IMG/VR virus record: IMGVR_UViG_3300042503_000983
Span: 1-64,000 of that record
DNA length: 64,000 nt
Reading direction: 5' to 3' (one strand)
From: a virus
In this document: one piece after another, positions 10,736-59,766 of the stretch
How positions within the stretch are numbered: the first letter of the stretch is position 1
Layout of the letters: each line of letters opens with the position of its first letter
Notes under the pieces: model-generated
What the model was told of the DNA's origin: nothing
The model's database searches: none
Seen by the model: the letters and a program-made list of their open reading frames with translations, nothing else
Made by a program: the position numbers and the translations under genes

Positions 10736-11067
10736 ATCTTGCTGAGATAGAATCAAGAGTATTTCTTCTGGGATTCTGGAAGAACTATTCTGAACTGGAG
10801 GACTCTATATCAATGCCCGAACTGGTAGCAATACTAGAAGCTAAAAATAGTCAAGAATATGAAAGTAGAAAATTCATGGCAGCTTTACAGGGCGTTGATT
10901 TAGATAGTTCAGATACGTCTAAGAATAAATGGGAAGAGATAAAGGCTAGAGCTTTTAGCAAAGGTGCTACATCGAATCCTAGAGACATTCTTGCCCTTCA
11001 AGGCAAAGCTGCACAACGTGCTGGCTTTGGAATTGGAAATGGCTTGGATTATGAGGTGGTTAATTAA
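10696..11067 (+). CDS. Tail assembly chaperone -1 frameshift extension (GT-like)
   Basis: C-CCA-AAC at 10696-10702 is in correct phase; the -1 frame opens right after TGA 10693-10695 and runs to 11067. Confidence 0.8.
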   Translation, partial: PKRTGSGSSWDELDLAEIESRVFLLGFWKNYSELEDSISMPELVAILEAKNSQEYESRKFMAALQGVDLDSSDTSKNKWEEIKARAFSKGATSNPRDILALQGKAAQRAGFGIGNGLDYEVVN

Positions 11068-14000
11068 TGGCTGGAGTAGCTAAAGGCATTATTGATATCC
11101 AGATAAACACTGGGTCTGCTGCTGCTGAGCTAAAAAAGCTCCAACTACAAATTAACTCCTTTAATTCAGCCCTTTCCAAGGGAAATCTAGCCCAAGCTAA
11201 ATTTGCTACTGACTATACAAGAGATCTTTCAAAAGCAATAAATTCAACTGGAGTTTTTACTTCAGAGTTTGTAAAGTTAAACTCCGCTGCTGCAAATCTT
11301 GACAACACTTTAAAAAGAGGAAGAGGAACTTTAGGTCAATTTTTTAGTTCTGCATTTAATAGAAATAGTGCAGCGTTTGCAGAAACAATGTCTCTTGCAG
11401 CTAGAAGAGCTTCTACCTTGCAAACACAATTTATTTCAACTGGTGCTTCTGCACAAGGTATGGGTGAAGCTCTTGCAATTAGACCTCTAGATGCCTATGC
11501 CTCTAAAGCAGCAATTGCAGCAGAAAGACAAGCCCTTCTAAATACAATGTTTAGACAGGGAACAACCCACATGATTAACTTTGGTAAAAATGTTCAGTGG
11601 GCTGGTCGTCAGCTTATGGTTGGCTTTACCGTACCTTTAACTGTTTTAGGAACAGTCGCAGGTAAAACCTTTATGGATATTGAAAAAGAATTAGTTAATC
11701 TTAAAAAGGTTTATGGAGATGCTTTTACAACTCCAGAAGAAGTAAATCAAAATATTGCACAAGTTAGACAACTTGCTGAAGAATATACAAAATATGGAAT
11801 TGCAGTAAAAGATACTATTGGAATGGCTGCAAATGCAGCAGCTTCTGGTGCAAGAAATGCAGACTTAATAGATGCAACAAGACAAGCAACAAGACTAGCA
11901 ACTCTTGGTCAGATGGAGCAGCAAGAAGCTTTAAAGACTACAATAGCCCTGCAATCTGCTTTTAGACTTTCTGGAGAAGACCTTGCAGATACAATTAACT
12001 TTTTAAATATGGTTGAAAATCAAACAGTAGTTTCTTTGCAAGACTTGTCTGCAGCAATTCCAAGAGTTGCCCCAGTTATTAAAGGTCTTGGTGGAGATGT
12101 ACGAGACATGTCAGTATTCCTTGCAGCAATGCAAGAAGGTGGTGTTAGTGCAGAACAGGGTGCTAACGCACTAAAGTCTGGTCTTGCATCTTTAATTAAT
12201 CCAACAAAAGCAGCAACAGAAACTTTGGGAAGTTTTGGAATTAATCTAGATAAGATAATTTCTACAAATCGTGGAGATTTGATGGGAACAGTATTTGCTT
12301 TTGGTGAGGCACTTAAAGGCTTGGATGATTTTTCAAAGCAACAGGCATTAGAAAAAGTTTTTGGAAAGTATCAGTATGCAAGACTTGGAGCTTTGTTTGA
12401 AAATATTGTTAGAGATGGATCTCAAGCAAGTCAAGTTTTACAATTAATGGAGTATGATGTTGCAGCATTAAAAACTACAGCAGAAAAAGAACTTAGTGCT
12501 GTAGAAAATGCTTTAGGAACACAGCTTATTGGAGCAGTAGAAAGATTAAAGCTATCTCTTGAACCAATTGGAGAGATATTTGTTAAACTTGCTATTCCTT
12601 TTGTAAATTTTCTTACAACTATTGTTGAAAAATTTAATGGGCTATCTGATGGTCAAAAGAAATTTGCAGCAATAGCAGCAGTCCTTGTTGGTGTCGTAAT
12701 TCCTGCTGGAACAATGTTTCTTGGTCTTTTAATTAACTTGCTTGGAACACTTGGAAAAATTAGTCATGGAATTGCAATTTTCGTAAAGTCACTTATTAAG
12801 GGTGGTCCAATAGCAGCAATAAGAACACTTACGCAATCTACCAAATATTTATCAATTGAAGAACTAGAAGCAGCAACTGCTGCAAAGCAATTGTCATCTG
12901 CTACACATATTGCTAAAGCAGCAATGCTAGAACAGGCTACTTCTACAGATATTGCAAGAATAGCTGTGGCAAAGCTTACTGCAGAGTACAGAACTCTTAT
13001 ATCAGCACAGGCACAGGCAGCAGCATTTAATCCAGCATTTAAAACTGCAGGTATGGCAGGAGCTGCAGCAGGTGCAGGTAAAACTGGTTCTGTTACAGTT
13101 AGAGCCCTTAGAAGAAATGCTGGTGGACCAATATTTGTATCTGGAGAAACACAGGTTCCAGGAGTTGGAAATACTGACACCGTTCCAGCAATGCTTACTC
13201 CAGGAGAGTTTGTTGTAAACAAAGAGGCAACTGCAAAAAATTATGCACTTCTTGATGCAATCAATAGTGGAAATAAATTTAATAAGGGCGGAATGATTCC
13301 TGGATACAATCTTGGATCAATGGTTTTAAGAAATAGTCAAGCAAGAAATCAGGCTATTAAGGAAAGATATCTTAGAATGTTTGGACCTGAAGCTCAGGCT
13401 AAAGGGATAAGTCTTGAAGAAAGATTTGGAAATCTTTCACTGCTATCAAGACAAGATCGTATTAAAAACCAAAGAGCTTTAAAACCAAAAAATGTGACAG
13501 CAAGACGAACATCGCCCAACCAACAAAGAGCTCAACAAGATGTACAGGAAGGACCTATTCGAAATGTTCAAAGCGTTGGTAACGCACCACAGAGTGTTAT
13601 AGATGAACTAACGGCAGACTTGGTAGCACTAGGAGCTCCAGCTAATGTTATGGGTGAAAAGGCAAGACTTATCACTCCAACACCAAGATATAAAAGAGAG
13701 GGTCCAGCACTTGAGGGTGATACCAGCTATGGAAAAGAGTTTGACTTTAATAATAGTCTGAGGCGTGGAGTGAGCAACCCTAATCTTGGCGTTGCTAGAA
13801 AAGAAATGGAAGATCTTTTTGCACTAAATCCTCAACTTCATGGAACCTCAACTCCAGTCTCTCCATTTAAACACATATTAGATGAAGCTAACCTTGATCC
13901 TGCTCATTATTCAAGAATTGACTCAGCACTAAGATCTAAGGCTATAGAAATTGTTAAAAGGTCTCCAGAATCTCATAAATTTTCAGATCCTGAATACGGA

Positions 14001-17000
14001 AGAATTATTGTTGACTCATTAAGGGCAGCAAATCTTTCAACTATTCTTCAAGAAAGATTGTTGTCTACAGCAAGAATAATGAATACAGAAATTGGTTCAA
14101 GATCAATGAAAAGGTTTGAACCATACATTAAGGATTCTATTAGATTTAGTGATACTGGTGGCATACATCCAAAGTTTGAACCTGTTCCAAATGCTCCTAG
14201 AGGTGGTACATACATATATACTGCAAGTGATGGAACACGAGTTGAAATAAATGCAGGACAGTCACGACCTATACCTGGAAGATTATCGTATTCAAATCAA
14301 AGATATAATGCAGGTCGCACATATAACAATGCACATGCAGAAGTTCAAGATTTTAATGCTGGTGGAGCTGTTGGAGGTATGCAATATTTTGGCAGAATGA
14401 TGCCAAATCGTGTTGTTGCAAAAAACCAATTTGAAAAGTTCTCTGGAACAAAGATTGCAGAGTCAGAAGGACATAGTAGTAGGTTTAGAAGCCTAGCTGG
14501 AGTTTATGAGGTTAATGGCAGAAAAATGTTTGTTAAGCCATTTCAAACTCTTCAAGAAGCTCAGGCAGAATTAATTGGAAATGCGGCAAGAAGAGCAATT
14601 GCAGGAACTGCAACCCCTGGATCAAGAATTGTAAGAATGGACGGTCCTGAAGGAGAAATATTTGCAACAACTGCTCCAATGATTCCAGGAATGAAATCAG
14701 GATCAACTCTTTCTACTAAAGAACTTGTCAAGCAAATTCCTGCCTCATCAATGCTTGGAGATATGGATGCAACAGCTGGAAATATTATTTCAACTCGTGG
14801 AGGAAGACTTGCAACAATTGATCCTGGTGCTGCAGGTGTTAAGCTAATTAGAAATTCAAAAGGTGTATTTAGAAGAGCTACTGGATCTGAAATTAGTTTT
14901 GGAAATGAAGCAACAAATACTGGAGCATATACAGCAAAAGCAATTACACAGGTTATTGAAAAAACAGGGGCATCAAAAGACTTTGTTAAAATGCTTGGAG
15001 ATTCTATTGCTCGTGAAAAATTAACTAAAGCACAATTTACAAAAATGTATGATGATGCTGTTGAGTCAGCTATTGCAAGAGTGTCTTCCTTTAAACTACC
15101 TTCTAGAATTGGAGATAGATCAAAATTAGATGAGTTAGCAAGAGCATCTGGATATAAAAATGCAGATGAAGCATACTCTGCAATTATGCTTAGAGACCTT
15201 ACTTCAATTAGAGGTTTAAGTGGAGAGATATATACAAGTGCTTCAAGATTCCAAGGAGTGCTAAAGGCAAATAGTGGAACTCTTGTTCCAGGTGTAGGAA
15301 ATACTGATACAGTTCCTGCAATGCTAACTCCTGGAGAGTTTGTAATTAATAAAGATGCTACTGCAAAAAATCTTCCTTTGCTACAGGCAATTAATAACGG
15401 AGAAACAAGAAGGTATGGTCTTGGAGACTATGTTAACCCTCTTGGTTCATTGACAAATGCTCAAAGAATAAAAGGAATTAGACCTTCAGCATCATACCAG
15501 CAATCAAGATCCGCCACTGGATACAATGTCTTTAGTGGAATGGGTTCTGCTGAAAAAATTGCACCAGTCCAGGCAGCATTAAAAACAGGTCCAAAATATA
15601 TATTAGACGCATATAAAGAATCTGGAAAAGCAATTTCAGATGCAGCCAAACCAATGTTAACTTCTTTTAAAGATACAAGTAAGTCTGTTGCAAATGGAGC
15701 AAATAATTTAAAAAATTCTATTAAAGATTATGGAAAATGGAATGTTGTTCCAAGAATGCAAGATGCAAAACAGGCTGTGGCAAACACAAGGGCAGCTATG
15801 GGAACTCCTGAAGCAAAGGCTCTTAGAGCAGAAAGAATGCAAAAAGCTGGTCAAGGAATGATGATGGCTTCAATGATTCCAATGATGGCTTCAGGTTTTG
15901 TAGAAGATCCAAAGCAACAGCAAATGATGATGGCTGCTGGAGGTGCTATGGCTATTCTTCCAATGCTTCAACAGTTTGGTCCAATTTTAGGAGGACTAAC
16001 CCTAGCAGTAGGAGCTGCTGCTGCAGGATTCTTAATGTTTAAAAAGGATATGGATAATACTGCTAAATCAGCTGCAGAATTTGGGTCAAACCTTGGTGGG
16101 GCAGCAAATAGAATGGAAACAATTAGTGCTGCAACTGGTTATGGATTTGCGTCAACAAGATCTTCAGTACAAGACTTTAGATTTACAGAAGAGCAGTCAC
16201 AAGGTGCTGCTGAAATGATGCCTTTCTTTGATACTGATGAGGGTAAAAAGCTTGTAGAAGACTTAAAGGGTGCTTCTTCTGAAGAAAGGTATGAGAAAGT
16301 TGCATCAATGCTAACATTTGCAATAGCAGATGGAATGGATCCTAAAAAAGCAGAGTCTTTTGGATCTGCAATAGCTTTTGCATTAGACGATTCATTATTA
16401 AAATCAAAAACAGTAGCTCTTATTAGATCTGGAAGGCTTCAAAGTGGATCTCAAGCAATGATTAGTGAAATTTCTAAAAGACAGGCAGCTGCAGACTCTT
16501 CAACGGTTTCAGATTTTGAAAAAGCAAAAGCTGAAGAGGCAAAAAGAAATAATACTGCTGGAACTAGTTCCAATGTAAAGTATGGAGGAATTGGGTTAGC
16601 TGCAGGTTTAGGTGCAGGAGTTGCAATCGCTGCATCAACTGCAAAGCTAGCAGCAATGGGTGGTGCAATAGGATCAGTAGTTCCAGTTGTTGGAACTGCT
16701 GTTGGTGCTGTAGCTGGTGCTGTAGTTGGATTAGTGGCTGGTATAGCAGTTTACAATCTAGCAATAAAAAATCAACAAAAACAGGTTGCAGAGTCATCCA
16801 AATCATTTGGAGCAACTATTCAAACATTAAAAGAATTAAACAATGCCGAATCTTTATTAAATGAAGAAAGGTCTAAAGGATTAATAACAGATACTCAGTT
16901 CGAATCTTCTTTAAAACAAATTAATGAAATGAGACAAGTTGAGTATGAAAGAGTTAAGAAGGCTATAGACATTGGAGCAAGTGCAGATGCACAGGCACAA

Positions 17001-20000
17001 GGAATTAAAGACCAGTTAGTGCTTTCTGGATTTAAGGGAGATACTGCTCAGGCAGTTGCATCTAATGTAACAACTGATAGTATTTCAAATAAGCTGTTCC
17101 AAAAAGATATGGACAAGCTAGATCAAGCTCAAAAAGATGTAGTAACTGGAATTATGGCAAGCACTTTGGATGGAATAACTGAAGAAAATGCTGGAGCAAA
17201 AATTGGAGACATAACAGACATCTATGCAAAAATAGCAGATGAACTAGTTACAGCAGCAGCAGATGGCTTAACCTCAGAAGAAATTAGGGCTGAAGCAGAA
17301 AAGGAACAAATTAGAAAGTTTGCTGAATCTGCAGCATCTAATCTTGTGAACCTAACTCCTGAACAACAGGCTGCAAGAGCAAATACTATGGCAAGCAATG
17401 TTAGTGCTGCACTTCCTAATGTAAATAAGATGGGTGTCACTACTTCTCAACTAGTAAGTGGAATTTCAGGGGTAAGTGCAGAAGATCAAGCAAAGATAAC
17501 AGAGTCAACTGCTAATGTTGAAAAATTTGCACAGCTTTTAAATAGTCTTCCAGAAGGATATGACCTATCTCTAGCAATGGAATATTTCTCTGGAGATAAT
17601 AAAGAACAAGATGTAGATGCATTCTATAAAACACAAAAAGATGCTATTGATAAAATTGCAGAACTTATGCCAAAGGGAGCAGATGCTCAGGCAATCTATA
17701 CCGCACTCAAAGGACCTGGAAAAGATCCAGTTAAAGAGTTAGAGGCTGCAAATAAAAAAGCTCAAGAAATGTTTGATTCTCTAGGTGGAGATGAAGCTAA
17801 AGTAAAGAGCGTTGTATTTGAAAGTACTGGGTACGACATGACACAGGCAGAAGTAGATGCCTTTGGTGCACTTCCTGCAAGTGAGCAAAAATCATATTTA
17901 GCATCATTTACCATTGCAACTATGTCAGTTGGAAATGCACCAACTATTCCTCAGTCAGGAGCTCCTGCAGAAATGTCAGCCTACTACAAGAGACTAGAGG
18001 TTTGGAAAAAAGCTGTAGCAGATCAACAAAAAGCTATCCAGTCAGTAATTCCTCAGACAGTTGTTAATACTGATGACAACGGTAGTAGCTCTGGCGGAAC
18101 AAAGCCTCCTAGCAAAAAGGCTCAAGCAAAAACTTTCTTAAAAGATGCTACTACGAATAACAAAGTTCTTAAAAATTACACAAACCTAGTTAAAGGTGCT
18201 GCAACAGCTAACAATATAGAAGCCCTTAGCATGATTCCTCAAGATGTATACATGAATCTTTCTACTGAAAATAGAAAGAAATTGATTAAAGAAATGCAAA
18301 AGCAAATTGCGTATCAACAAAGATTAAATGCAGTAACAGTTTTAGCAGAAACTCAAAAAGCTACAGCAGATATGAAAAAATATTCAAAAGCACTTAACTC
18401 TTTGGGTGTTGTAATAACTTCAGATATCGAAGGAATGATTGACCAGAAAGCATTCCTTGCTATGACTACTGAAGAAAGAAAGGCATACATTGCAGAGCTG
18501 AATAAACAATCAGTAGCACAAGCTAAGCTAGCAGCAACTATGGCACTTGCAGATGCCAAAAAACAAACTAGCGATATGCAAAAATATTCTGCTGCACTAG
18601 GTGGACTAGGTGTTGCAATAAGCTCAGACATTGAAGGAATGATTGATCAAAAAGCATTCCTTGCTATGAACACTGCTCAAAGAAAAGCATATATTGCAGA
18701 GCTAAATAAGCAGACTTTGGCACAGGCTAAGCTAGCAGCTGCAATGGAAATTACAGACATGCAACAACAAACTCAAGAAATGCAAAATTACTTTAATGCA
18801 ATTTCTCCAATCGCTGCTGCTGCTGGGGCAGAAGTTTTGGGAATGATAGATACAGAAAAGTATCTTGCAATGACTACTACACAAAGGGAGGAATATGTAA
18901 AACAGCTAACTTCTCAGCTAAATGTTCAAAGAGCACTTGATTATTTAACACAGACTTCTCAAGAAAGAACAATGGATGCAATAGATGCAGAATCTTCAGC
19001 AATAAATATTAAGAATTCTGCATTACAAAACTCCCTTTCTGGAATGGAAAGAGAAAATGAGTTAATACAACGTCAAATAAGTTTAAGAAACCATGCTCTT
19101 GATTTGTTAGCAAAAGAAGAAGAAAAGATTAATACAACTTATGATGATAGAGTAAAGGCTCTTGATAAGGTTGCTAATGCAAATGATAGAATTGCTCAAA
19201 AAGATCGTTCAAGATTAGACCTAGCTTCAGCACTTGCATCTGGAGATATTTCTGCTGCAGCAGGTGCAGCAAGTGCAATGCAACAAGAAGAGGCACAGTT
19301 TAGAATTGAGGACGCAAGGGCAGCACTTGAAGCAAAAAGACAAAAAGAACTTGAATCGTTAACAGTTTCTGTAAATGGTGTAATGATGACAAGAAAGCAA
19401 ATTACAGAACAAATATCTCAGTTTGGTGAGACTATTTACAAAAATGAACAAGACATGATTTTAATTCAAGACCAACTTTATGCTAACTCTCTTGCACAAA
19501 AAGTACTAGATGATCAAAGAATGAAGTTAGAACAGCAAGTTTTGTTAATAAAAATGAGACAAAATATTGAAGCCTTAAGAGCACAGGGGTTAACTGGTCA
19601 AGCTTTAATAGATTTTCAAAATTATATTGATGCCTATAATACCCTTCAGGCAGCAGCTGCAGCAGCTGACATTGGAAATCCTGGAGCTGCTGCAAATACA
19701 ACATTGGGTGCTGGTGGCGGAGGAGGAGCTGCTGCAGTAATTGCTGCTCCAACTCCTGTAGCTGCTGTAACTCCAGTAACTCCACCACCACCGCCTCCTC
19801 CACCACCGCCTCCTCCACCACCTCCACCGCCACCACCTCCACCGCCACCACCGCCACCACCACCTGTTTATAGCTATTATACAAAAGCTCAATTCAATGC
19901 TGGAATAAAAGACTCAAAAGTTTCTTATGGAAATGGAAGTGAGCAGCATTACATAGCCAGAAAGTTGGGCTATTCGAATCCAACTGCTAGAACAGTAAAA

Positions 20001-20474
20001 GCAGACGAGATGGACAATGTTTATTGGGCTCTTTCAGAAGCAAGAAGGCAAGAGATTACAGAGTTAGTAAAAGAAGCAAGAGCCTCTACATCAAAAGCAT
20101 TTTCTGGATATAACAGTGGAGGTCTTGTTGCAGGACCTGGAAATACTGACAGTATATCTGCAATGCTCACCCCTGGAGAATTTGTAGTAAGAAGATCTAT
20201 GGTGGATAAATATGGAATGTCACTGCTTGAAGCAATAAATATGGGTGCTTTTAAAATGCCAAACATGCAGGAGCCTAAGTTTAGCTTTAGTGATTCTGGA
20301 AGATATGATACTGGAATTAGTGATGCAAGAGTTACTGAAACAATGTATAATAATGTATATAACTTAAATGTTAATGTTGCTGGAACAGATGCCTCACCAG
20401 ACGATATTGCAAATGTAGTTATGGCAAAGCTTTCACAGCAAAATAGAGGAAATTTAAGGAGCAATAGATACTAA
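11067..20474 (+). CDS. Tape measure protein, 3135 aa, with internal cargo domains
   Basis: N-terminal TP901-like TMP region, hydrophobic segments, coiled coils, three TD(T/S)xxAMLTPGEFV motifs. Confidence 0.95.
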   Translation: MAGVAKGIIDIQINTGSAAAELKKLQLQINSFNSALSKGNLAQAKFATDYTRDLSKAINSTGVFTSEFVKLNSAAANLDNTLKRGRGTLGQFFSSAFNRNSAAFAETMSLAARRASTLQTQFISTGASAQGMGEALAIRPLDAYASKAAIAAERQALLNTMFRQGTTHMINFGKNVQWAGRQLMVGFTVPLTVLGTVAGKTFMDIEKELVNLKKVYGDAFTTPEEVNQNIAQVRQLAEEYTKYGIAVKDTIGMAANAAASGARNADLIDATRQATRLATLGQMEQQEALKTTIALQSAFRLSGEDLADTINFLNMVENQTVVSLQDLSAAIPRVAPVIKGLGGDVRDMSVFLAAMQEGGVSAEQGANALKSGLASLINPTKAATETLGSFGINLDKIISTNRGDLMGTVFAFGEALKGLDDFSKQQALEKVFGKYQYARLGALFENIVRDGSQASQVLQLMEYDVAALKTTAEKELSAVENALGTQLIGAVERLKLSLEPIGEIFVKLAIPFVNFLTTIVEKFNGLSDGQKKFAAIAAVLVGVVIPAGTMFLGLLINLLGTLGKISHGIAIFVKSLIKGGPIAAIRTLTQSTKYLSIEELEAATAAKQLSSATHIAKAAMLEQATSTDIARIAVAKLTAEYRTLISAQAQAAAFNPAFKTAGMAGAAAGAGKTGSVTVRALRRNAGGPIFVSGETQVPGVGNTDTVPAMLTPGEFVVNKEATAKNYALLDAINSGNKFNKGGMIPGYNLGSMVLRNSQARNQAIKERYLRMFGPEAQAKGISLEERFGNLSLLSRQDRIKNQRALKPKNVTARRTSPNQQRAQQDVQEGPIRNVQSVGNAPQSVIDELTADLVALGAPANVMGEKARLITPTPRYKREGPALEGDTSYGKEFDFNNSLRRGVSNPNLGVARKEMEDLFALNPQLHGTSTPVSPFKHILDEANLDPAHYSRIDSALRSKAIEIVKRSPESHKFSDPEYGRIIVDSLRAANLSTILQERLLSTARIMNTEIGSRSMKRFEPYIKDSIRFSDTGGIHPKFEPVPNAPRGGTYIYTASDGTRVEINAGQSRPIPGRLSYSNQRYNAGRTYNNAHAEVQDFNAGGAVGGMQYFGRMMPNRVVAKNQFEKFSGTKIAESEGHSSRFRSLAGVYEVNGRKMFVKPFQTLQEAQAELIGNAARRAIAGTATPGSRIVRMDGPEGEIFATTAPMIPGMKSGSTLSTKELVKQIPASSMLGDMDATAGNIISTRGGRLATIDPGAAGVKLIRNSKGVFRRATGSEISFGNEATNTGAYTAKAITQVIEKTGASKDFVKMLGDSIAREKLTKAQFTKMYDDAVESAIARVSSFKLPSRIGDRSKLDELARASGYKNADEAYSAIMLRDLTSIRGLSGEIYTSASRFQGVLKANSGTLVPGVGNTDTVPAMLTPGEFVINKDATAKNLPLLQAINNGETRRYGLGDYVNPLGSLTNAQRIKGIRPSASYQQSRSATGYNVFSGMGSAEKIAPVQAALKTGPKYILDAYKESGKAISDAAKPMLTSFKDTSKSVANGANNLKNSIKDYGKWNVVPRMQDAKQAVANTRAAMGTPEAKALRAERMQKAGQGMMMASMIPMMASGFVEDPKQQQMMMAAGGAMAILPMLQQFGPILGGLTLAVGAAAAGFLMFKKDMDNTAKSAAEFGSNLGGAANRMETISAATGYGFASTRSSVQDFRFTEEQSQGAAEMMPFFDTDEGKKLVEDLKGASSEERYEKVASMLTFAIADGMDPKKAESFGSAIAFALDDSLLKSKTVALIRSGRLQSGSQAMISEISKRQAAADSSTVSDFEKAKAEEAKRNNTAGTSSNVKYGGIGLAAGLGAGVAIAASTAKLAAMGGAIGSVVPVVGTAVGAVAGAVVGLVAGIAVYNLAIKNQQKQVAESSKSFGATIQTLKELNNAESLLNEERSKGLITDTQFESSLKQINEMRQVEYERVKKAIDIGASADAQAQGIKDQLVLSGFKGDTAQAVASNVTTDSISNKLFQKDMDKLDQAQKDVVTGIMASTLDGITEENAGAKIGDITDIYAKIADELVTAAADGLTSEEIRAEAEKEQIRKFAESAASNLVNLTPEQQAARANTMASNVSAALPNVNKMGVTTSQLVSGISGVSAEDQAKITESTANVEKFAQLLNSLPEGYDLSLAMEYFSGDNKEQDVDAFYKTQKDAIDKIAELMPKGADAQAIYTALKGPGKDPVKELEAANKKAQEMFDSLGGDEAKVKSVVFESTGYDMTQAEVDAFGALPASEQKSYLASFTIATMSVGNAPTIPQSGAPAEMSAYYKRLEVWKKAVADQQKAIQSVIPQTVVNTDDNGSSSGGTKPPSKKAQAKTFLKDATTNNKVLKNYTNLVKGAATANNIEALSMIPQDVYMNLSTENRKKLIKEMQKQIAYQQRLNAVTVLAETQKATADMKKYSKALNSLGVVITSDIEGMIDQKAFLAMTTEERKAYIAELNKQSVAQAKLAATMALADAKKQTSDMQKYSAALGGLGVAISSDIEGMIDQKAFLAMNTAQRKAYIAELNKQTLAQAKLAAAMEITDMQQQTQEMQNYFNAISPIAAAAGAEVLGMIDTEKYLAMTTTQREEYVKQLTSQLNVQRALDYLTQTSQERTMDAIDAESSAINIKNSALQNSLSGMERENELIQRQISLRNHALDLLAKEEEKINTTYDDRVKALDKVANANDRIAQKDRSRLDLASALASGDISAAAGAASAMQQEEAQFRIEDARAALEAKRQKELESLTVSVNGVMMTRKQITEQISQFGETIYKNEQDMILIQDQLYANSLAQKVLDDQRMKLEQQVLLIKMRQNIEALRAQGLTGQALIDFQNYIDAYNTLQAAAAAADIGNPGAAANTTLGAGGGGGAAAVIAAPTPVAAVTPVTPPPPPPPPPPPPPPPPPPPPPPPPPPPPVYSYYTKAQFNAGIKDSKVSYGNGSEQHYIARKLGYSNPTARTVKADEMDNVYWALSEARRQEITELVKEARASTSKAFSGYNSGGLVAGPGNTDSISAMLTPGEFVVRRSMVDKYGMSLLEAINMGAFKMPNMQEPKFSFSDSGRYDTGISDARVTETMYNNVYNLNVNVAGTDASPDDIANVVMAKLSQQNRGNLRSNRY
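19782..19865 (+). repeat. Poly-proline run (28 Pro) in TMP
   Basis: Uninterrupted CCA/CCG/CCT codons. Confidence 0.95.
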
Positions 20475-21112
20475 TGGTTAGTAGTGCATATTTAAATTCT
20501 AGAAAAAAGTGGGAAAGACCACAAGCAATTATTTTTTCAAATAACTCTGGAGGAATTTTAAATGGTGTTCCACAAATTTCTGGAGTTGAAGGACAAGACT
20601 TCTTAATACTTTCTGACCATAATAGAAGTGACATTTCTTTTAATGCTAATAGAATTGAAAGTAAAAAAAGAATGGTAAATGGTCATATGCGTTCTTATCA
20701 TATTGCAGATAAGATGGAGATATCTTTTTCTTATGACATGCTTCCTTCAAGATCTTACAGCAAAGATCCAGAGTTTGATGAAAATGGAATTCAAACATCA
20801 GACTCTTTGGTTCCAGATACTCCAAAAAATCCAAGACTATTTCCAGCAGAGCACACCTTGATAGAATATACAGCAGATGGCGGTGCTGGAGGATCAGAGC
20901 TATTAGAATGGTACAAAACAAATCCAGGATCATTTTATGCATTTTTATCTTACGACAAGCCTCAAAGTTTTACTGTTGGAAAATATACTAGTTTAAATAA
21001 GTATTCAGAAGTGTTAGAAGTATTTTTCTCAGACTTTAGTTACAACGTTGTCAAAAGAGGTGGGTCTAATCACGATCTATGGGACATATCTATTTCTATT
21101 GAGGAGGTATAA
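20474..21112 (+). CDS. Putative distal tail protein
   Basis: Immediately after TMP; RMVNG.MR and C-terminal WDISISIEEV pattern. Confidence 0.6.
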   Translation: MVSSAYLNSRKKWERPQAIIFSNNSGGILNGVPQISGVEGQDFLILSDHNRSDISFNANRIESKKRMVNGHMRSYHIADKMEISFSYDMLPSRSYSKDPEFDENGIQTSDSLVPDTPKNPRLFPAEHTLIEYTADGGAGGSELLEWYKTNPGSFYAFLSYDKPQSFTVGKYTSLNKYSEVLEVFFSDFSYNVVKRGGSNHDLWDISISIEEV

Positions 21113-24100
21113 TGTTTTCAGATAATGATTTAATTAACCATCTTAAAACAAAGAATAGTGTATCCATAGATTCCTTGGTTATTGCAGAGTGGAATCAAAA
21201 TGATTTTACTAACCTTGAAAACTATGGTAACTATAGGTTTAGACCAGATGGATCAGATGTAGTATATAGAAATATTTATCCAGAATATGATCCACAAGAT
21301 GTTGTAAATTCTTATACCAATGCCTTGGATTCAAACTACATTTCTGAATATAAAACAGAAGACCCAGATGAGCCAGTTACTTTTATTACAAAAGAAAGTG
21401 ATAGAGAATCTTACTACTCTTTAAAGGATTGCATTAAGCCTTTTAGACCTAGATCTGGAATCAACAAGATGTTGTATTTTGGAGAGTCTAATATTAATAA
21501 TACCAAGTTTGTTGACAGCTTTAGATCTGGAAGAAGACCAAGGTATTATTTTTCTTCAAGGTTTGACAACTTTAAATACTGGAACTCTTATAGAAAAGAA
21601 TCTGGTCAAGAGTTTGGAATATCTAGTCAGGTTGCTACATTTTTTACCACTGATAATCCTTCTTACAAAATAAAAGACTGTGCCCCATTTGTTACTTACA
21701 AAAACAAGGTAGCTACAAATAGAATAGTCGTAAAGATGCAAACTAATCTAGCTGATCCAGCAGCAGTTGGTGTTAATGGAGACTCTCTAGTTCCTGAAGA
21801 AATTAGAAGAAACAATTCTTTAATAGCAGATCCAATGAAAGATATATCAAAATCTTCTGTTCCAAAAAAATGGAAAATACAATACCTTGATGAAAACAAT
21901 AACTGGGCTGACGCAATACAGTTTGATGAAACGTCTACTAGAAGAGATGGGTCAAGAATTGTTCCTTGGGATGGATATGTAGAAGTATATTATGGAATAA
22001 AAATTCCAGAAAGATTTAGAACAAACTTTAACCTATATAGCTATTTAGATTCTTTTGATCAATTACCAGACACTAGTTTGTACAATTTTTCTAACAATAC
22101 AAGAGATGGAGATGCATATATAGTTGGAGCCTCATCAACTAATGCAGGAACTCTTTATGTTTGGAGCCAGGAAGATGAAGAGTGGGCAGACTATGATGTA
22201 GAATATGGATTTTCACTATTAGAAGATGACGATACAAAAAGGCTTGGACTAGTTAAAAAAATATTAAATCCAGAATACTTTAACATTGAAGGTACTGACA
22301 TCTATAGAGAATTTGCCTTTGTTAAGGGAATTAGGCTAGTTGTTGAAACTATGTATGCTCCAAATAAAACTTTTGATTTAATTGAAATATCTCCAAGACT
22401 AAAGGTTAACATAACTGATTATGTTTTAGATTATGAAATTACTAAAAACATTATGGCAACAGACTATGGTCTTCCCGTTGGAGGTCTTGTTGCTTCAACT
22501 GGAAACGTATCCTTGTCAAACCATGACGGATCTTTTACAGAGTTAAATGTTTTTGACGAAGAGGATAAAACTGGGAGCATTATTGCAAACAATCTTAAGC
22601 CACAAATTAAATTTGACTTTTATGAAGCAGTTCTTAATGTTAATGGATATGATAAATTTATTCCACTAAAAACATTTTACTCAGAAAATGCAGCTATTGC
22701 AACCAGTGGCATGGAAGATATATCTTTAGACTTAAGAGATGCATATTTTATTCTAGAATCAAATAAAGCTGCACCAATATTTTTACAAAATTGTACCCTA
22801 ACCATGGCAGCAGCACTTCTTCTTGATAACATAGGTTTTAGTAACTATGTCTTTAAAAATATAACCTCTGTAAACGATCCTGTAATACCTTTTTTCTTTG
22901 TTGAACCAGACACTTCAGTTTCAGAAATTTTACAAAGACTAGCACAGTCTACTCAAACTGCAATGTTTTTTGACGAGTACAATAACTTTGTTATCATGCC
23001 AAAAGAATATTTGATGCCAGACATCTCTATTAGAGATAATAATTTAGCAATATCAGAAAGACTCACAAACTTATATGGTCAAAAAACTGATAACTTTGTT
23101 CCAAATATTGAGGCTATTGCAGGATTTGAAACAAACATTTTAAACGATGGTCAAATTAACTACACTACTAGATATATTCAAAGAGAAGTTTCAAGACTAG
23201 AGCAAGCAAGTCTTAGCCTAAGTGAAAGAACCTATGGATATAAGAGCTCTATCCTTTGGGAGCTTGGAGATCAAAAAGAATTAAGAACTATAAATCAGCC
23301 AACCGCTAATACAGGGTATGCACTTGGAGCTGTAACTTTAAATACAAGCTTACCAGACTTTGCTCCGTATGTAAGAAATCATCAAATTGTAAACAACACA
23401 ATTGATGTTGGAGAAAGTGCGTTTTGGCTACCAAGGTTTCAAGGATACTTGTATGCAAATGGAGAAATTATAAGATATGATGCTCAACAGTATCACGTTG
23501 ATGCCCCGTCTGCTTCTGCTACAAATGGTCTTGTTTGGATAACAAGTAATAATGAGTATCAAAAGTATTTTTCAAACTTGGTATTTAATGGAAAAATGAC
23601 TCTTACAGGGCTGCTTAGAATCTATACAGAACCTTACTACGAGAATGCTTCTGGATCAAATTTTGAGAACCTTGAAGAAAATGTTAGATATAAAAACGGA
23701 GATGTTAGGTCTCATGGTAGAGGTCAGTTTGGTACTGGAATAGTAAATCACTTTGCAGGACTAAATCCTTACTGGGAAGATCCAGACAATAGAAGGTCTT
23801 TTAGAATGGACTCAGGAAATATTTATAGCACTATTCCTGCAAAATTTTTTCCCAACTTGGAACTTGAAGTGCCAATTACAACTATAATACCTTATGAATT
23901 TTATACAGACAGTGAGTTTGTTCAAGGTATTTTAAATCCTAGACTATCCTATGGAAGAGGAAGTGAGCAGCACTATATTGCCAAAGCAATGGGATACACT
24001 GATCCATTAGCATACAGCGTAAGGGCTGCAGAAATGGTAGGGGTATATAGAAATTTAAGCCCTTATAGAAAAAATGTAATTACTGGAATGATAATAAGGG

Positions 24101-25968
24101 CTAATTCTAGTACACAAAATGTTTTTGGATACATGTCAGGATTTAATATGACTCAAATTTCTGATGAGCCACCAAGGTACAACTACGCCATGCCACTTGG
24201 AGATGATCCAATTTCTAAAAGCCAATCCCTAGTTCATGGAAAAATTGCAAACTTTATGAAACAATCAACAAGAACAGAAGGATTTTCTAGCTATAGTCAG
24301 CAAGACACTGCTGGAATTCAGTCCTCAGCTTTAGTTTTTTCAGGACCATATCCAGTACCATCTTTAGCAAACCCAGTATTTAACAGAACAGAACTATCTG
24401 CTACTACTGAAACAGATTTAGTAAACTATGTTTATAAAAGTTTAGATACAGATTATACTCATGTTGGAACTAGAATGAGAATTATTGGAAAACAAAAAGA
24501 TGACGATACTCAGTCTGCTTTAAATTCTATAAAACTATTTGATATTGATCAAAATAGTTCCACAGGAGGATTAAATGTAAAAGAGCTTTCTGGTGGAGCT
24601 GGAGGAATTGGATACATGCTAGATCCAATAACAAACTCTGGATACTACCTTGAAATTGCATCCCTTTCTTCAGATGTTTTAAAAGAGTTTACTAATAGTG
24701 GCTCAGTATCTTCTGGCTCAGTATCTTCTGGCTCAGTATCTTCTGGCTCAGTATCATATGAACCAGTTATTGAAAACATAATTTTTTATAAAGTTGAAAA
24801 TAGACCATACCTTAGACAGAAAACTGGAAAAACAAATATTGCAGTTCCTAAAAAGCTTTGGGGGTCTCTTGCAAGAATTCTTGTAGATGAAGGAAAGTTT
24901 ATAGGATCTGACAGGGCAACTTCTCAAGAAATTCCAGTGTACGATCTATCTTTGGATGTACAAATTTCTAGAAATGGATCAAGAATATCAAGAATAGATT
25001 TTTCCATATACTTAAACAATGTATTAATTGGAATAGTAAGTGACGAAACTCCATTACAAATGCCAGTTGATGGATTAAAAACTGGACTATTTACTAGAGG
25101 TTCAAGCAGATGTATGTTTGAAAATATTTATGCCCTAAAGAATATAAAAGAAAACGACACCCCTTTGCTTGAAAAAATTGAAGGAGCATTTTCTGCAGAA
25201 TCTCTGAGAAAGTATTCCCTTCCAGCAGCAATTCAAAGAACATACATGTCTTCCATTGGAACAGAGACAAGACCAACTGTAGATTTTTATTTTGAAGAGT
25301 TTGGCACAATTTTAAGAGAATGTGCATATTTTAATATTAAGTATGACCAAGCTTATCCAGCATTAATTGCAAAAATAGTTCCCCCATTTACTGTTGAAAA
25401 ATCATATGAAATTTCTGGATTTTTGCCAGGATCATATGGAGCAGAGTTTTTATTATTCAATACAACAGACAAGGCAATAGACTTGAGTGAAAATTCTACC
25501 AATAGAATTATGATTCAAGGAATAACTTTTACTCAAAATATATCAAATGTCCTTACTGTAGACGATTACTTTAAGGAACTATCGAACTTCTCTGATCCAG
25601 TTATTACAGAAAATAATTTAATAATTTCTCCAGAAAGGTCAGAAAAAATTTATGATAACATTAAGAACAGTAGGGCTATTTATGGAAACAAATCATTTTC
25701 TTTAGATTCTGTTTATATTCAAAATGAAGACTCTGCAAAAGATGTTATGAAGTGGATTCTAGATAAAACTATTAAACCAAGAAAGGTTTTTGAAATAGAT
25801 ACTTTTGGAACTTCTCATATACAACTTGGAGATATCGTTAAGATAGATTTTGACTTACCAGAAGGAGTTAAGCTAGTGGATGAGAACAAGAAGTTTGTAG
25901 TAATATCTGCTACATACAACAGATCTTCTTCGGATGTTCAAAGTCAATTAAGGTTGATGGAGGTTTAA
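21112..25968 (+). CDS. Large tail-tip/baseplate hub protein, 1618 aa
   Basis: Synteny; hub-like segments AMFFDEYNNF and IQLGDIV. Confidence 0.75.
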   Translation: MFSDNDLINHLKTKNSVSIDSLVIAEWNQNDFTNLENYGNYRFRPDGSDVVYRNIYPEYDPQDVVNSYTNALDSNYISEYKTEDPDEPVTFITKESDRESYYSLKDCIKPFRPRSGINKMLYFGESNINNTKFVDSFRSGRRPRYYFSSRFDNFKYWNSYRKESGQEFGISSQVATFFTTDNPSYKIKDCAPFVTYKNKVATNRIVVKMQTNLADPAAVGVNGDSLVPEEIRRNNSLIADPMKDISKSSVPKKWKIQYLDENNNWADAIQFDETSTRRDGSRIVPWDGYVEVYYGIKIPERFRTNFNLYSYLDSFDQLPDTSLYNFSNNTRDGDAYIVGASSTNAGTLYVWSQEDEEWADYDVEYGFSLLEDDDTKRLGLVKKILNPEYFNIEGTDIYREFAFVKGIRLVVETMYAPNKTFDLIEISPRLKVNITDYVLDYEITKNIMATDYGLPVGGLVASTGNVSLSNHDGSFTELNVFDEEDKTGSIIANNLKPQIKFDFYEAVLNVNGYDKFIPLKTFYSENAAIATSGMEDISLDLRDAYFILESNKAAPIFLQNCTLTMAAALLLDNIGFSNYVFKNITSVNDPVIPFFFVEPDTSVSEILQRLAQSTQTAMFFDEYNNFVIMPKEYLMPDISIRDNNLAISERLTNLYGQKTDNFVPNIEAIAGFETNILNDGQINYTTRYIQREVSRLEQASLSLSERTYGYKSSILWELGDQKELRTINQPTANTGYALGAVTLNTSLPDFAPYVRNHQIVNNTIDVGESAFWLPRFQGYLYANGEIIRYDAQQYHVDAPSASATNGLVWITSNNEYQKYFSNLVFNGKMTLTGLLRIYTEPYYENASGSNFENLEENVRYKNGDVRSHGRGQFGTGIVNHFAGLNPYWEDPDNRRSFRMDSGNIYSTIPAKFFPNLELEVPITTIIPYEFYTDSEFVQGILNPRLSYGRGSEQHYIAKAMGYTDPLAYSVRAAEMVGVYRNLSPYRKNVITGMIIRANSSTQNVFGYMSGFNMTQISDEPPRYNYAMPLGDDPISKSQSLVHGKIANFMKQSTRTEGFSSYSQQDTAGIQSSALVFSGPYPVPSLANPVFNRTELSATTETDLVNYVYKSLDTDYTHVGTRMRIIGKQKDDDTQSALNSIKLFDIDQNSSTGGLNVKELSGGAGGIGYMLDPITNSGYYLEIASLSSDVLKEFTNSGSVSSGSVSSGSVSSGSVSYEPVIENIIFYKVENRPYLRQKTGKTNIAVPKKLWGSLARILVDEGKFIGSDRATSQEIPVYDLSLDVQISRNGSRISRIDFSIYLNNVLIGIVSDETPLQMPVDGLKTGLFTRGSSRCMFENIYALKNIKENDTPLLEKIEGAFSAESLRKYSLPAAIQRTYMSSIGTETRPTVDFYFEEFGTILRECAYFNIKYDQAYPALIAKIVPPFTVEKSYEISGFLPGSYGAEFLLFNTTDKAIDLSENSTNRIMIQGITFTQNISNVLTVDDYFKELSNFSDPVITENNLIISPERSEKIYDNIKNSRAIYGNKSFSLDSVYIQNEDSAKDVMKWILDKTIKPRKVFEIDTFGTSHIQLGDIVKIDFDLPEGVKLVDENKKFVVISATYNRSSSDVQSQLRLMEV
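24699..24755 (+). repeat. Perfect 15-bp tandem repeat x3.8 encoding (SGSVS)n
   Basis: TGGCTCAGTATCTTC repeated without mismatch. Confidence 0.95.
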
Positions 25969-43049: not shown

Positions 43050-44063
43050 ATGAGTAAGAGAGTTCTTTTAACTGGTGCTAGTGGTTTTGTTGGAAGCCAT
43101 GTATTGAGACACCTATTGGTTAACACAGATTGGTTTATTGTTTGTCCAACTACATTTACACACAAAGGTTTGACAGATAGAATTAACGTTGCTTGTGACG
43201 ATTTTCCAGATGCTTACAAACGTATCAAGGTAATTAAGACAGACTTAACAGCTCCAATTTCTCCAGTAACTTATCATGCATTTGGAGAAATTGATTATGT
43301 TATAAATGTTGCTAGTGAAAGTCATGTTGATAGAAGTATTGAAGAGCCTACTCCTTTTATCTTAAACAATGTTTCTTTAATATGTAATCTGCTTGATTGG
43401 GCAAGAGTTTCAAAACCAGAAAAGTTTTTGCATATATCAACTGATGAAGTTTATGGTCCAGCTCCAAAGGGACACGCTCACAAAGAATGGGTAGATCAAT
43501 ACTTCCCAAGCAATCCATACTCTGCTTCTAAAGCAGCACAAGAAAGCATTGCGTTTTCATACTGGAGAACATACGGTGTTCCAGTTGCAATTACAAACAC
43601 AATGAATATTATTGGAGAAACTCAGGATACCGAAAAGTTTATGCCAATGGTAATTAAAAAGGTTCTTAATGGCGATACAATGAAGATACATGCATCTCCA
43701 GAGGGAGAAGTTGGAAGTCGCTTTTATCTACATGCTAGAAATCAAGCAGATGGTCTTTTGCACGTTCTTAAGCAGCACTTCCCAGCCTACGGAGAATCTG
43801 ATGTTCCAGCAAAGTTTCACATTGTTGGTGAAAGAGAAGTTGACAATTTAGAAATGGCTCAGTTAATTGCTTCAGCAGTAGGAAAGCCTTTACGCTATGA
43901 GTTAGAAGACTTTCATTCATCACGTCCAGGACACGATCTAAGGTACGCCTTGGATGGAAAAAAGATAGCTGACACAGGATGGGTATCACCAATGCCACTA
44001 GAAGAATCTATTAGAAAGACAGTTGAGTGGACTCTTAAGCATCCAGAATGGCTTAATTTGTGA
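43050..44063 (+). CDS. rmlB: dTDP-glucose 4,6-dehydratase-like NDP-sugar enzyme
   Basis: TGASGFVG, ESHVDRSI, STDEVYG, YSASK, RPGHDLRY; upstream TTGACA-18-TACAAT. Confidence 0.9.
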   Translation: MSKRVLLTGASGFVGSHVLRHLLVNTDWFIVCPTTFTHKGLTDRINVACDDFPDAYKRIKVIKTDLTAPISPVTYHAFGEIDYVINVASESHVDRSIEEPTPFILNNVSLICNLLDWARVSKPEKFLHISTDEVYGPAPKGHAHKEWVDQYFPSNPYSASKAAQESIAFSYWRTYGVPVAITNTMNIIGETQDTEKFMPMVIKKVLNGDTMKIHASPEGEVGSRFYLHARNQADGLLHVLKQHFPAYGESDVPAKFHIVGEREVDNLEMAQLIASAVGKPLRYELEDFHSSRPGHDLRYALDGKKIADTGWVSPMPLEESIRKTVEWTLKHPEWLNL

Positions 44064-51260: not shown

Positions 51261-51403
51261 TGTTTCTTACAAAGATGATTAGGTTTGCAGAAAAAATTGG
51301 CATGGACGTAGACGAACTTATGGAAATGACAGTCCTTGATGCCATAATGAAAATAGAAGATACAAGAACAATGTGGGCAGAATTAAAAAAGGATATTGGT
51401 TAA
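51260..51403 (+). CDS. Hypothetical protein (47 aa)
   Basis: TAATG coupling; fills the gap before the ftsZ promoter. Confidence 0.55.
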   Translation: MFLTKMIRFAEKIGMDVDELMEMTVLDAIMKIEDTRTMWAELKKDIG

Positions 51404-51417
51404 GGTATAATACTTAT

Positions 51418-57486: not shown

Positions 57487-57885
57487 ATGATTCAAATGGG
57501 TTCACCAATTGTTGGAGGTAAGGTTACAACACCTTACAAGAAGCTTGGAAAAATGTGGAGCAAAGGCTATCACACAGGCGTAGACTATGCTTGCAAAGTT
57601 GGAACAGACATTGTTGCTGTTGCTGATGGCAAGATTGAAAATGCTACCTGGGGAGCCAGCTATGGCACTCAGTTAGTCCAGAAAGTTGAGGGTGGATGGG
57701 TAATCTATGCACACCTTTCAAAGGCTCTAGTTAAGGCTGGAGACACAGTAAAGAAGGGGCAGCATATTGCTGAGTCTGGTAATACAGGCAACTCTTCAGG
57801 TCCTCATCTTCACTTTGAAATGAGAGATAATATTAGATGGAGTGCAGGTAAAGACATTGATCCTGCTAAGATTCTTGCATCTTAA
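57487..57885 (+). CDS. M23 peptidase (putative endolysin)
   Basis: HTGVD, YAHL, SGNTGNSSGPHLHFE. Confidence 0.92.
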   Translation: MIQMGSPIVGGKVTTPYKKLGKMWSKGYHTGVDYACKVGTDIVAVADGKIENATWGASYGTQLVQKVEGGWVIYAHLSKALVKAGDTVKKGQHIAESGNTGNSSGPHLHFEMRDNIRWSAGKDIDPAKILAS

Positions 57886-59600: not shown

Positions 59601-59604
59601 CAGC

Positions 59605-59737: not shown

Positions 59738-59766
59738 CTCAAAAATAGATATATAATAGAATTACT

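What the first reader, a model, noticed from the sequence alone, without database searches (positions are those of the whole stretch)
19869..20090. A 74-aa module duplicated between the TMP C-terminus and the tail-tip protein
Seen: TMP YSYYTKAQFNAGIKDSKVSYGNGSEQHYIARKLGYSNPTARTVKADEMDNVYWALSEARRQEITELVKEARAST aligns without gaps to tail protein YEFYTDSEFVQGILNPRLSYGRGSEQHYIAKAMGYTDPLAYSVRAAEMVGVYRNLSPYRKNVITGMIIRANSST (23893-24114), with 35/74 identities by hand count and a shared core SYGxGSEQHYIA. In the TMP it sits directly after a 28-Pro spacer. I do not recognise the family. Inference: a mobile binding module, for example for cell wall or receptor, displayed twice on the tail apparatus.
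Basis: seen in the sequence. Interest (0 to 1): 0.72.

Follow-up and report, generated by a model that had tools for sequence, protein, structure and literature searches.

The report
Small helical module traded between phage tail proteins
An 83-residue helical domain of no known family sits near the end of a phage's tail tape measure protein and was also copied into its large tail-tip protein, where related phages swap it as a discrete cassette; what it binds is unknown.

Summary
In detail: tape measure protein (TMP) residues 2935-3008 and tail-protein residues 928-1001 share 35 of 74 identities without gaps (E 4e-25), and the similarity runs to about 83 aa.

The module is predicted all-helical. 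Pfam, PHROGs, NCBIfam, PDB sequences, two fold libraries and the ESM Atlas gave no significant match.

- **Rarity:** an exhaustive HMMER scan of 1.84 billion representatives found 7 hits. Five are TMPs of related uncultured siphophages; two are repeat proteins of doubtful relevance.
- **In TMPs:** the module fills a variable slot, after a hypervariable low-complexity spacer and before the last GNTD..PGEFV motif. 7 of 120 listed TMP relatives carry it.
- **In the tail protein:** it is a clean insertion of about 106 aa in a variable linker. Only four orthologues in hand carry it (the window's P0004, P0005, P0007, L001).
- **Mobility:** carriers are not monophyletic (AU p 2.3e-5). A 268-nt block matching the module is 98.5% identical between two phages whose tail genes are otherwise 80% identical.

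So "mobile and displayed twice" is supported. "Binding" is inference only. The likeliest role is a dispensable, non-catalytic envelope-binding head. It is a new variant of a known theme, of moderate interest.

The parts
11067..20474 (+). Tape measure protein gene, 3135 aa
   Evidence: PF10145 PhageMin_Tail E 1.3e-27; phrog_10030 tail length tape measure protein E 5.4e-96; ORF list
19782..19865 (+). 28-proline spacer (TMP residues 2906-2933), encoded by mixed CCA/CCG/CCT codons
   Evidence: relatives have other low-complexity spacers at this place
19869..20117 (+).
   Evidence: model of five helices, mean pLDDT 73.8
20139..20186 (+). Third GNTDxxxAMLTPGEFV motif of the TMP, just after the module (earlier copies start at 13167 and 15297)
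   Evidence: phrog_35029 matched in 3 stretches
20337..20471 (+). Conserved extreme C-terminus of the TMP (last 45 aa), kept in all TMP relatives aligned
   Evidence: alignment of 16 TMP C-ends
20474..21112 (+). 212-aa gene between the TMP and the large tail protein (a small minor tail protein by position)
   Evidence: same gene order in Streptomyces phage LilMartin; only phrog_1194 of unknown function
21112..25968 (+). Large minor tail protein gene, 1618 aa
   Evidence: phrog_10359 minor tail protein E 2.6e-59; about 25% identity to annotated minor tail proteins of Streptomyces and Rhodococcus phages; 650 relatives at E<=1e-3
23863..24192 (+). Insertion relative to orthologues (about residues 918-1027), lying in a variable linker
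   Evidence: alignment with 10 module-less orthologues; P0012 is 89.5% identical on the flanks, is 106 aa shorter and lacks it
23893..24138 (+).
23892..24159 (+). Recently exchanged DNA cassette: 4 mismatches in 268 nt against locus L001, whose tail gene is otherwise 80% identical

Best explanation
The module is a real, self-folding, all-helical domain of about 83 residues from a family not yet described. Its home is a variable slot in the C-terminal region of the tape measure proteins of a small clade of uncultured, low-GC, very long-tailed siphophages. There it sits behind a long low-complexity spacer and about 125 residues before the conserved TMP end. An old copy was inserted into a variable linker of the large minor tail protein encoded two genes downstream. 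Since then, related phages have gained, lost and swapped it as a discrete cassette. These points are shown. The function is inferred: it is an accessory, non-catalytic binding head for a component of the host envelope. The tail protein would present it at the tip, and the leading end of the TMP would present it when that protein is expelled. It would help attachment or penetration but is not needed to build a tail. The confidence given is for the whole statement; the evolutionary part alone I hold at about 0.9 and the functional part at about 0.35.
For: - The similarity is real: E 4e-25.
- No known family matched: Pfam, PHROGs, NCBIfam, PDB sequences, Foldseek PDB and BFVD with no hit at E<=0.001, VIA-align best Z 4.8, ESM Atlas no usable hit.
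- The model has five helices, mean pLDDT 73.8, pTM 0.71.
- It is rare: 7 hits at E<=0.001 among 1.84 billion representatives, 5 of them TMPs.
- It is optional in TMPs: 7 of 120 listed TMP relatives carry it, and 1 of 52 IMG/VR loci that hold the TMP C-end. The same slot holds a different module of about 80 aa in 5 TMPs, or nothing.
- The spacer before it is always long but of different kinds: 28 Pro, Ala-Pro repeats, Thr-Pro-Val repeats, or an Ala/Lys/Glu-rich stretch.
- It is a clean insertion in the tail protein, in a linker where locus L070 carries an unrelated insertion.
- TMP-plus/tail-minus was seen directly on one contig, L074. Both phages whose TMP and tail gene are both in hand and whose tail carries the module also carry it in the TMP (window, L001).
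- Rooted on the two most distant TMP copies, the tail copies are one clade (support 97) inside the TMP diversity, which fits transfer from TMP to tail.
- Carriers are not monophyletic on the backbone tree: AU p 2.3e-5.
- Window vs L001: backbone 81.8%, module 96.3%. L001 vs P0007: backbone 97.7%, module 82.9%.
- DNA block 23892-24159: 4/268 mismatches against 912/4568 outside it; third codon positions 1/90 against 522/1522.
- All ten invariant residues are kept in the tail copies.
- From the literature: the TMP C-end fills the Dit-Tal cavity, and Tal proteins often carry cell-wall-active domains (PMC5099701, passages read). Small dispensable motifs in mycobacteriophage TMPs aid infection (PMC1796659, abstract read).
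Against: - No binding has been shown or computed, and the host and ligand are unknown.
- The sequence tests for the two peptidoglycan-binding families considered were negative. The only structural hint is weak: three GH108-type muramidase entries at Z 3.3-3.8, within the noise range the tool itself describes.
- The module model rests on a 4-sequence alignment. In the 1200-residue tail-protein model the region is of low confidence (mean pLDDT 44.1), so exposure of the insertion site is inferred from its variability, not seen.
- All sequences come from metagenome assemblies. The cassette evidence rests on three tail-gene lineages.
- The clade for the AU test was named after a first tree had been seen.
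- The 50%-identity representative library hides module-bearing members behind module-less representatives, so the rarity figures are lower bounds.
Confidence: 0.45

Rival explanations
1. Homotypic latch. The tail-protein copy pairs with the TMP copy, or takes its place in a shared docking site inside the tip. This would couple the TMP end to the tip protein and so tune when the TMP is released.
For: Both phages whose TMP and tail gene are both in hand and whose tail carries the module also carry it in the TMP (window and L001). No tail-plus/TMP-minus case was seen. The TMP C-end is reported to lie in the Dit-Tal cavity (PMC5099701 passages). Both proteins are expected to be trimers (general knowledge of siphophage tails, not tested here).
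Against: The TMP copy works without any tail copy in L074, and probably in the phages of P0134 and P0137, judged only from equal contig lengths. The two copies in one phage are only 48% identical, and the tail allele is swapped independently of the TMP allele. Two co-occurrences are too few to mean much.
Confidence: 0.15
2. Passenger domain. It is a compact, stable fold tolerated in permissive linkers of tail proteins and spread by the ordinary mosaic recombination of phages, with no specific ligand. At most it acts as a spacer.
For: Most orthologues of both proteins lack it. Both sites are variable and accept other inserts. No functional family matched.
Against: Ten residues, including the polar pair E25-Q26, are invariant across copies as little as 26-37% identical overall. 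A 268-nt allele has recently replaced another allele at exactly the module's borders, which is easier to explain by selection on the module. The module-bearing tail protein forms two 90% clusters of 8 members each; the eight members listed for the window's cluster sit on several different contigs.
Confidence: 0.15
3. Arms-race determinant. The slot in the TMP end and the linker in the tail protein carry interchangeable modules that change how the entering tail proteins are seen by host or prophage exclusion and defence systems. On this reading the module is one allele of an escape cassette.
For: There are alternative modules, or none, at the same TMP slot, and very variable spacers. Module alleles move independently of the backbone. 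From memory, not from a call: some superinfection-exclusion proteins act on TMPs.
Against: No defence or exclusion partner is known for these uncultured phages. Nothing in the sequence points to an anti-defence activity. The same patterns are expected for any host-interaction module.
Confidence: 0.1
4. Small cell-wall hydrolase. Like the lytic motifs in some TMPs and tail-associated lysins, with the invariant Glu as the catalytic residue.
For: The location matches that of known lytic motifs in TMPs and Tal proteins (PMC1796659 abstract; PMC5099701 passages). Glu25 is invariant. There are weak fold hits to GH108-type muramidase entries at Z 3.3-3.8.
Against: No hydrolase family matched by sequence or fold. 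About 83 residues of five short helices is small for a muramidase. Elsewhere the phage has separate M23 peptidase and SLT genes (57487-57885, 58002-58541).
Confidence: 0.05

Closest known systems
Small accessory motifs embedded in mycobacteriophage tape measure proteins (motifs 1-3; Piuri and Hatfull 2006, PMC1796659, abstract read)
   Same: A short extra module inside a very long TMP. It is present in some relatives only and is not needed for viability there. By comparison it is dispensable here too. It is thought to act on the envelope during DNA injection.
   Different: Those motifs resemble host proteins and motif 3 hydrolyses peptidoglycan. This module has no cellular relative among 1.84 billion representatives and no hydrolase signature. 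It also occurs in a second tail protein of the same phage.
Modular extensions of tail-associated lysins (Tal) and other tip proteins of siphophages (PMC5099701, passages read)
   Same: The gene lies just downstream of the TMP. It encodes a large protein that accepts extra domains, and the TMP C-end and the tip protein meet in the tip complex.
   Different: No lytic domain was found in this tail protein. Its fold could not be modelled, so whether it is a true Tal or hub protein is untested. The inserted module is helical and of unknown family.
Peptidoglycan-binding helical bundles (Pfam PG_binding_1 PF01471, PG_binding_3 PF09374)
   Same: A small all-helical domain of 60-80 residues on a linker, in proteins that meet the cell wall. 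There are weak fold hits to proteins that I recall as GH108 plus PG_binding_3 (the domain make-up of those entries is recalled, not checked).
   Different: No HMM match for any of 14 copies, nor in a six-frame scan of the record. It cannot be filed as a member.
Mosaic exchange of host-recognition modules among phage tail genes (general knowledge)
   Same: The history of the module disagrees with the history of the gene around it, and there is a sharp block of near-identity.
   Different: The unit exchanged here is a single domain of 268 nt in the middle of a 4.9-kb gene, and the same domain family also sits inside the tape measure protein.

Membership tests
Phage tail tape measure protein (PF10145, TP901 type): the protein that hosts copy 1 | Match to the family HMM above its cut-off; the longest gene of the tail module | tested here: met
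   PF10145 97.4 bits against a cut-off of 33.2; phrog_10030 E 5.4e-96; 3135 aa
Minor tail protein phrog_10359: the protein that hosts copy 2 | Match to the family profile; position downstream of the TMP | tested here: met
   E 2.6e-59; same gene order (TMP, small gene, large gene) in Streptomyces phage LilMartin, whose gene is annotated minor tail protein
Tal / hub (gp27-like) tail-tip protein | N-terminal hub fold shared with solved siphophage tip proteins | tested here: inconclusive
   The model of residues 1-1200 has mean pLDDT 44.1. Foldseek on it found no match at E<=0.001. A profile of 44 orthologues found no PDB sequence at E<=1.
PG_binding_1 (PF01471) | Match to the Pfam HMM (cut-off 23 bits) | tested here: not met
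   None of 14 module copies matched at E<=10. A six-frame scan of the record found no match at E<=10, while the control rang in 11 of 14 genomes.
PG_binding_3 / GH108-type muramidases (PF09374) | Match to the Pfam HMM | tested here: inconclusive
   No match among 14 copies or in the record, but the control rang in no genome.
PG_binding_3 / GH108-type muramidases (PF09374) | Shared fold with solved members | tested here: inconclusive
   2ikb_A Z 3.8 (rmsd 3.5, 68 aligned), 6v3z_A Z 3.6 (3.9, 76) and 7dnp_A Z 3.3 (4.2, 72), among 577 chains with Z>=2 and none with Z>=5.
Mycobacteriophage TMP motifs 1-3 | Sequence similarity to host cell-wall proteins | tested here: not met
   The exhaustive scan found only phage TMPs plus two repeat proteins whose single repeats score weakly.
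Mycobacteriophage TMP motifs 1-3 | Peptidoglycan hydrolase activity | not testable with these tools
   Needs a zymogram or turbidity assay on host sacculi; the host is unknown.

The most novel reading that the evidence does not exclude
One small domain serves as a shared key on both sides of the tail's exit. On the tip protein it engages a host-envelope component from outside. On the leading end of the tape measure protein, held out on a rigid spacer, it engages the same component, or the tip copy itself, as the protein is expelled. Swapping the 268-nt cassette would then retune both steps at once. That would be a new class of entry determinant that couples receptor binding to tape-measure release, and a new domain family.
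Probability: 0.15. Interest if true: 0.7.

Novelty: new variant of a known kind. Interest (0 to 1): 0.42.

Why it matters
Tape measure proteins are mostly treated as rulers. Only a few embedded functional motifs are known, and those are enzymes with host relatives. Here a domain of no known family occupies a swappable slot at the working end of a 3135-residue TMP, and it recurs in the neighbouring tip protein. There is unusually sharp evidence that the domain alone moves between phages. If it binds an envelope component, it marks a short piece of sequence that could set host range or entry efficiency in an abundant group of uncultured phages (650 tail-protein relatives at E<=1e-3). It would also add a compact binding domain to the toolbox. 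If it does nothing specific, it is still a clean example of single-domain mosaicism inside essential tail genes.

Tried and rejected
- **Phage GenBank records:** megablast of 19500-24500 and tblastn of the module found nothing.
- **JGI metagenome contigs:** two scans with module patterns found no relative.
- **Fold searches with the module model:** Foldseek PDB and BFVD gave no hit at E<=0.001. VIA-align over 48,161 chains gave a best Z of 4.8.
- **ESM Atlas:** no usable hit.
- **Tail-protein model:** residues 1-1200 with 44 orthologues came out at mean pLDDT 44.1, so it says nothing about where the insertion sits. The Foldseek search with it is meaningless.
- **Complex prediction:** TMP copy against tail copy, each as a 2-row alignment, gave no verdict (score 0.00, mark 0.32, controls not run). 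This is no evidence either way.
- **Alternative TMP-slot module:** hhalign of the module against it (5 sequences) gave 49.9% probability over 23 columns. That is too weak to call them related.
- **P0131 and P0133:** these passed the whole-protein threshold only by summing six weak repeats each (best single repeat i-E-value 8e-4 in a 251-protein search). They also hit many unrelated Pfam families in the same way. I treat them as not established.
- **Insertion flanks:** no convincing direct or inverted repeats flank the tail insertion, only 9-12-nt matches.
- **Earlier findings of this scan:** nothing for this genome or sequence.
- **Print searches:** the motif GSEQHYIA occurs in no paper of the library. 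Two word searches for a domain shared by TMP and tail proteins gave nothing relevant in the 15 titles and abstract openings listed (12 of 376 papers, 3 of 4). Supplementary files were not consulted.

Full report
**Observation.**
They align without gaps at 35/74 identities, E 4e-25.
- They lie in a 3135-aa ORF (11067-20474) and a 1618-aa ORF (21112-25968).
- Between the whole proteins this is the only significant similarity. It extends to 40/84 identities, up to a shared F(S)GYxSG.
- The proline run before the TMP copy is exactly 28 residues (19782-19865).
- The whole 72,942-base virus record, estimated 68% complete, holds these two copies only.
- At DNA level the copies are 54.5% identical, so the duplication is old.

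**The two host proteins.**
- The first is a tape measure protein: PF10145 at 97.4 bits and phrog_10030 at E 5.4e-96.
- The second matches phrog_10359, 'minor tail protein'. It is about 25% identical over residues 394-861 to annotated minor tail proteins of 127 Streptomyces and 5 Rhodococcus phage records.
- In Streptomyces phage LilMartin the gene order is the same: TMP, a small minor tail gene, then the large one.
- Calling it a tip protein therefore rests on gene order. My 1200-residue model failed (mean pLDDT 44.1) and neither Foldseek nor a PDB profile search helped.
- The window is a phage genome with all long genes on one strand and about 35% GC. It has portal, protease, capsid, Pol III alpha, DnaB, primase, RecA, FtsZ, an M23 peptidase and an SLT domain protein.

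**What the module is.**
- Alone, it matches nothing significant in Pfam, PHROGs, NCBIfam or PDB sequences, whether as single sequences or as a 14-copy profile.
- AlphaFold2 on a 4-sequence alignment gives five helices (7-14, 24-32, 39-42, 45-54, 57-72), mean pLDDT 73.8 and pTM 0.71.
- Foldseek against PDB and BFVD finds nothing at E<=0.001.
- VIA-align over 48,161 chains peaks at Z 4.8. Three entries at Z 3.3-3.8 (2ikb, 6v3z, 7dnp) I recall to be GH108-type muramidases, but this is within the noise range the tool describes.
- PG_binding_1 finds nothing in the record even at E<=10, while ringing in 11 of 14 control genomes. PG_binding_3 finds nothing either, but its control rang nowhere.
- Across 14 copies the invariant residues are F9, G23, E25, Q26, I29, A30, G34, M48, Y52 and A70. 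H27-Y28 are kept in 11 of 14 copies: one has YH and two have AQ.

**Distribution.**
- A word-indexed search of proteins of 131-2000 aa found 5 carriers.
- An exhaustive HMMER scan of 1.84 billion 50%-identity representatives found 7 proteins at E<=0.001. Five are TMPs or TMP fragments (P0008, P0006, P0009, P0130, P0132). Two are repeat proteins that pass only by adding weak repeats.
- No free-standing small protein and no cellular protein turned up.
- IMG/VR holds two further contigs with the module, L001 and L074. Two scans of JGI metagenome contigs found none.
- Representatives at 50% identity can hide carriers, so these counts are lower bounds.

**The TMP site is a slot.**
- Of the 120 listed relatives of the TMP C-terminal region (498 hits at E<=1e-3), 7 carry the module (P0008, P0130, P0134, P0135, P0136, P0137, and weakly P0213).
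- Of 68 IMG/VR loci with a related tail gene, 52 hold at least 400 aa of the upstream TMP end. Only one of these has the module.
- In an alignment of 16 TMP C-ends the module lies between a Gly-rich low-complexity stretch and the last GNTD..PGEFV motif. Five TMPs hold a different module of about 80 aa there, and others hold nothing.
- The spacer in front is always long but of different make: 28 Pro (window), Ala-Pro repeats (L001/P0008), Thr-Pro-Val repeats (L074), Ala/Ser/Thr-Pro repeats (P0135), or some 90 residues rich in Ala, Lys and Glu (P0006, P0130, P0134, P0136).
- These look like the rigid spacer types known from other proteins. That reading is mine, from general knowledge.

**The tail copy is an insertion in a permissive linker.**
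- The tail protein family is large: 650 hits at E<=1e-3, 120 listed, nearly all 1480-1532 aa.
- Only the window's protein and its 90% cluster (P0005, 8 members listed on several contigs), P0007 (8 members) and L001 carry the module.
- Against 10 module-less orthologues the insertion is clean, between FFPNLE and PLGDD, where the others have about 20 variable residues. P0012 is 89.5% identical on the flanks, is 106 aa shorter and lacks the module.
- Locus L070 has an unrelated insertion at the same place.

**Direction and mobility.**
- In a tree of the 14 copies, rooted on the two most distant TMP copies, the three tail copies form one clade (support 97) on a long branch. It is sister (support 69) to the nearer TMP copies and is not nested with the resident TMP copy.
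- The wider spread in TMPs, together with TMP-plus/tail-minus seen directly on L074 (tail protein 78.9% identical to the window's, no module), points to transfer from a TMP into the tail gene.
- On a backbone tree of 21 tail proteins with the insert columns removed, the window pairs with module-less P0012 (SH-aLRT 100). L001 and P0007 sit among module-less P0029, P0018 and P0037.
- Forcing the three carriers together costs 342 log-likelihood units, AU p 2.3e-5. The group was named after I had seen a FastTree tree.
- Identities disagree in both directions. Window vs L001: backbone 81.8%, module 96.3%. L001 vs P0007: backbone 97.7%, module 82.9%.
- In DNA, window and L001 differ at 912 of 4568 aligned tail-gene positions outside 23892-24159, but at 4 of 268 inside it. 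At third codon positions the figures are 522/1522 outside and 1/90 inside (binomial 1e-20 and 2e-15).
- The block's edges coincide with the module's edges. So the domain alone was recently replaced or transferred between phages.
- I found no flanking repeats that would suggest a mechanism.

**How it probably works.**
- Shown: it is a conserved, self-contained, dispensable and mobile domain at two places in the distal tail machinery.
- From the literature: the TMP C-end fills the Dit-Tal cavity and is proposed to interact with Dit and Tal, and Tal proteins often carry cell-wall-active domains (PMC5099701, passages read). Small optional motifs in mycobacteriophage TMPs help infection of stationary cells (PMC1796659, abstract read).
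- Inferred: the module is a non-catalytic binding head for an envelope component, presented by the tip protein and by the leading end of the expelled TMP.
- I hold this at about 0.35. It stands ahead of a TMP-tip latch (0.15), a passenger domain (0.15), an escape cassette (0.1) and a hydrolase (0.05).

**Comparison and novelty.**
- The nearest known things are the embedded TMP motifs of mycobacteriophages and the modular extensions of tip proteins.
- This case differs in four ways: the domain family has no known relatives, it has no host homologue, it sits in both proteins of one phage, and it moves as a single-domain cassette.
- I rate it a new variant of a known kind, of moderate interest.

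**Limits.** Everything rests on metagenome assemblies and a handful of carriers. The module model is of middling confidence. No test of binding was possible.

Noticed in passing
window 51373-52353: A phage-encoded FtsZ: Tubulin/FtsZ GTPase domain E 2.3e-46 plus FtsZ_C E 3.7e-29.
   Followed up: no
window 43050-45091: Two metabolic genes side by side: an NAD-dependent epimerase/dehydratase (E 6.7e-41) and an IMPDH/GMP-reductase family protein (E 1e-99).
   Followed up: no
window 13167, 15297, 20139 (starts): The TMP carries three copies of a 16-residue motif GNTDxxxAMLTPGEFV, matched by phrog_35029 of unknown function. Relatives keep the motif, and the last copy always follows the variable slot.
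   Followed up: partly
proteins P0139, P0140, P0141, P0142, P0144 (TMP relatives): At the same TMP slot these hold a different module of about 80 aa (D.LFNxMI..YEKLS...). It matches no Pfam family and has only a weak 23-column likeness to the module's fourth and fifth helices.
   Followed up: partly
locus L070, tail ORF starting at 951: An unrelated insertion of roughly 60-90 aa at the same linker of the tail protein, after window residue 911-914. Other orthologues have inserts after residues 124, 586, 797, 1199 and 1233.
   Followed up: partly
window about 18200-19000 (TMP residues about 2380-2650): Tandem units of roughly 55-60 aa (..MIDQKAFLAMT..R.AYIAELNKQ..) repeat about four times in this TMP and more often in P0130. 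This may be how tail length varies (read, not measured).
   Followed up: no
window 57487-57885 and 58002-58541: A 132-aa M23 peptidase (E 7.4e-29) and a 179-aa protein with a weak SLT domain (E 5e-05). These are likely lysis or cell-wall enzymes, separate from the tail genes.
   Followed up: no
window 59528-59601, 59665-59738, 62960-63036: Three tRNA genes: Asn-GTT and Arg-TCT on the + strand, Met-CAT on the - strand.
   Followed up: no
protein P0131 (618 aa, one metagenome contig of 3356 b): Six repeats of about 97 aa that each weakly resemble module positions 27-79, followed by a weak match to the C-terminal part of the uracil-DNA glycosylase (UDG) profile (PF03167, E 0.0076, 16.8 bits, under the 24.3-bit cut-off). 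Probably a composition effect, but not resolved.
   Followed up: partly
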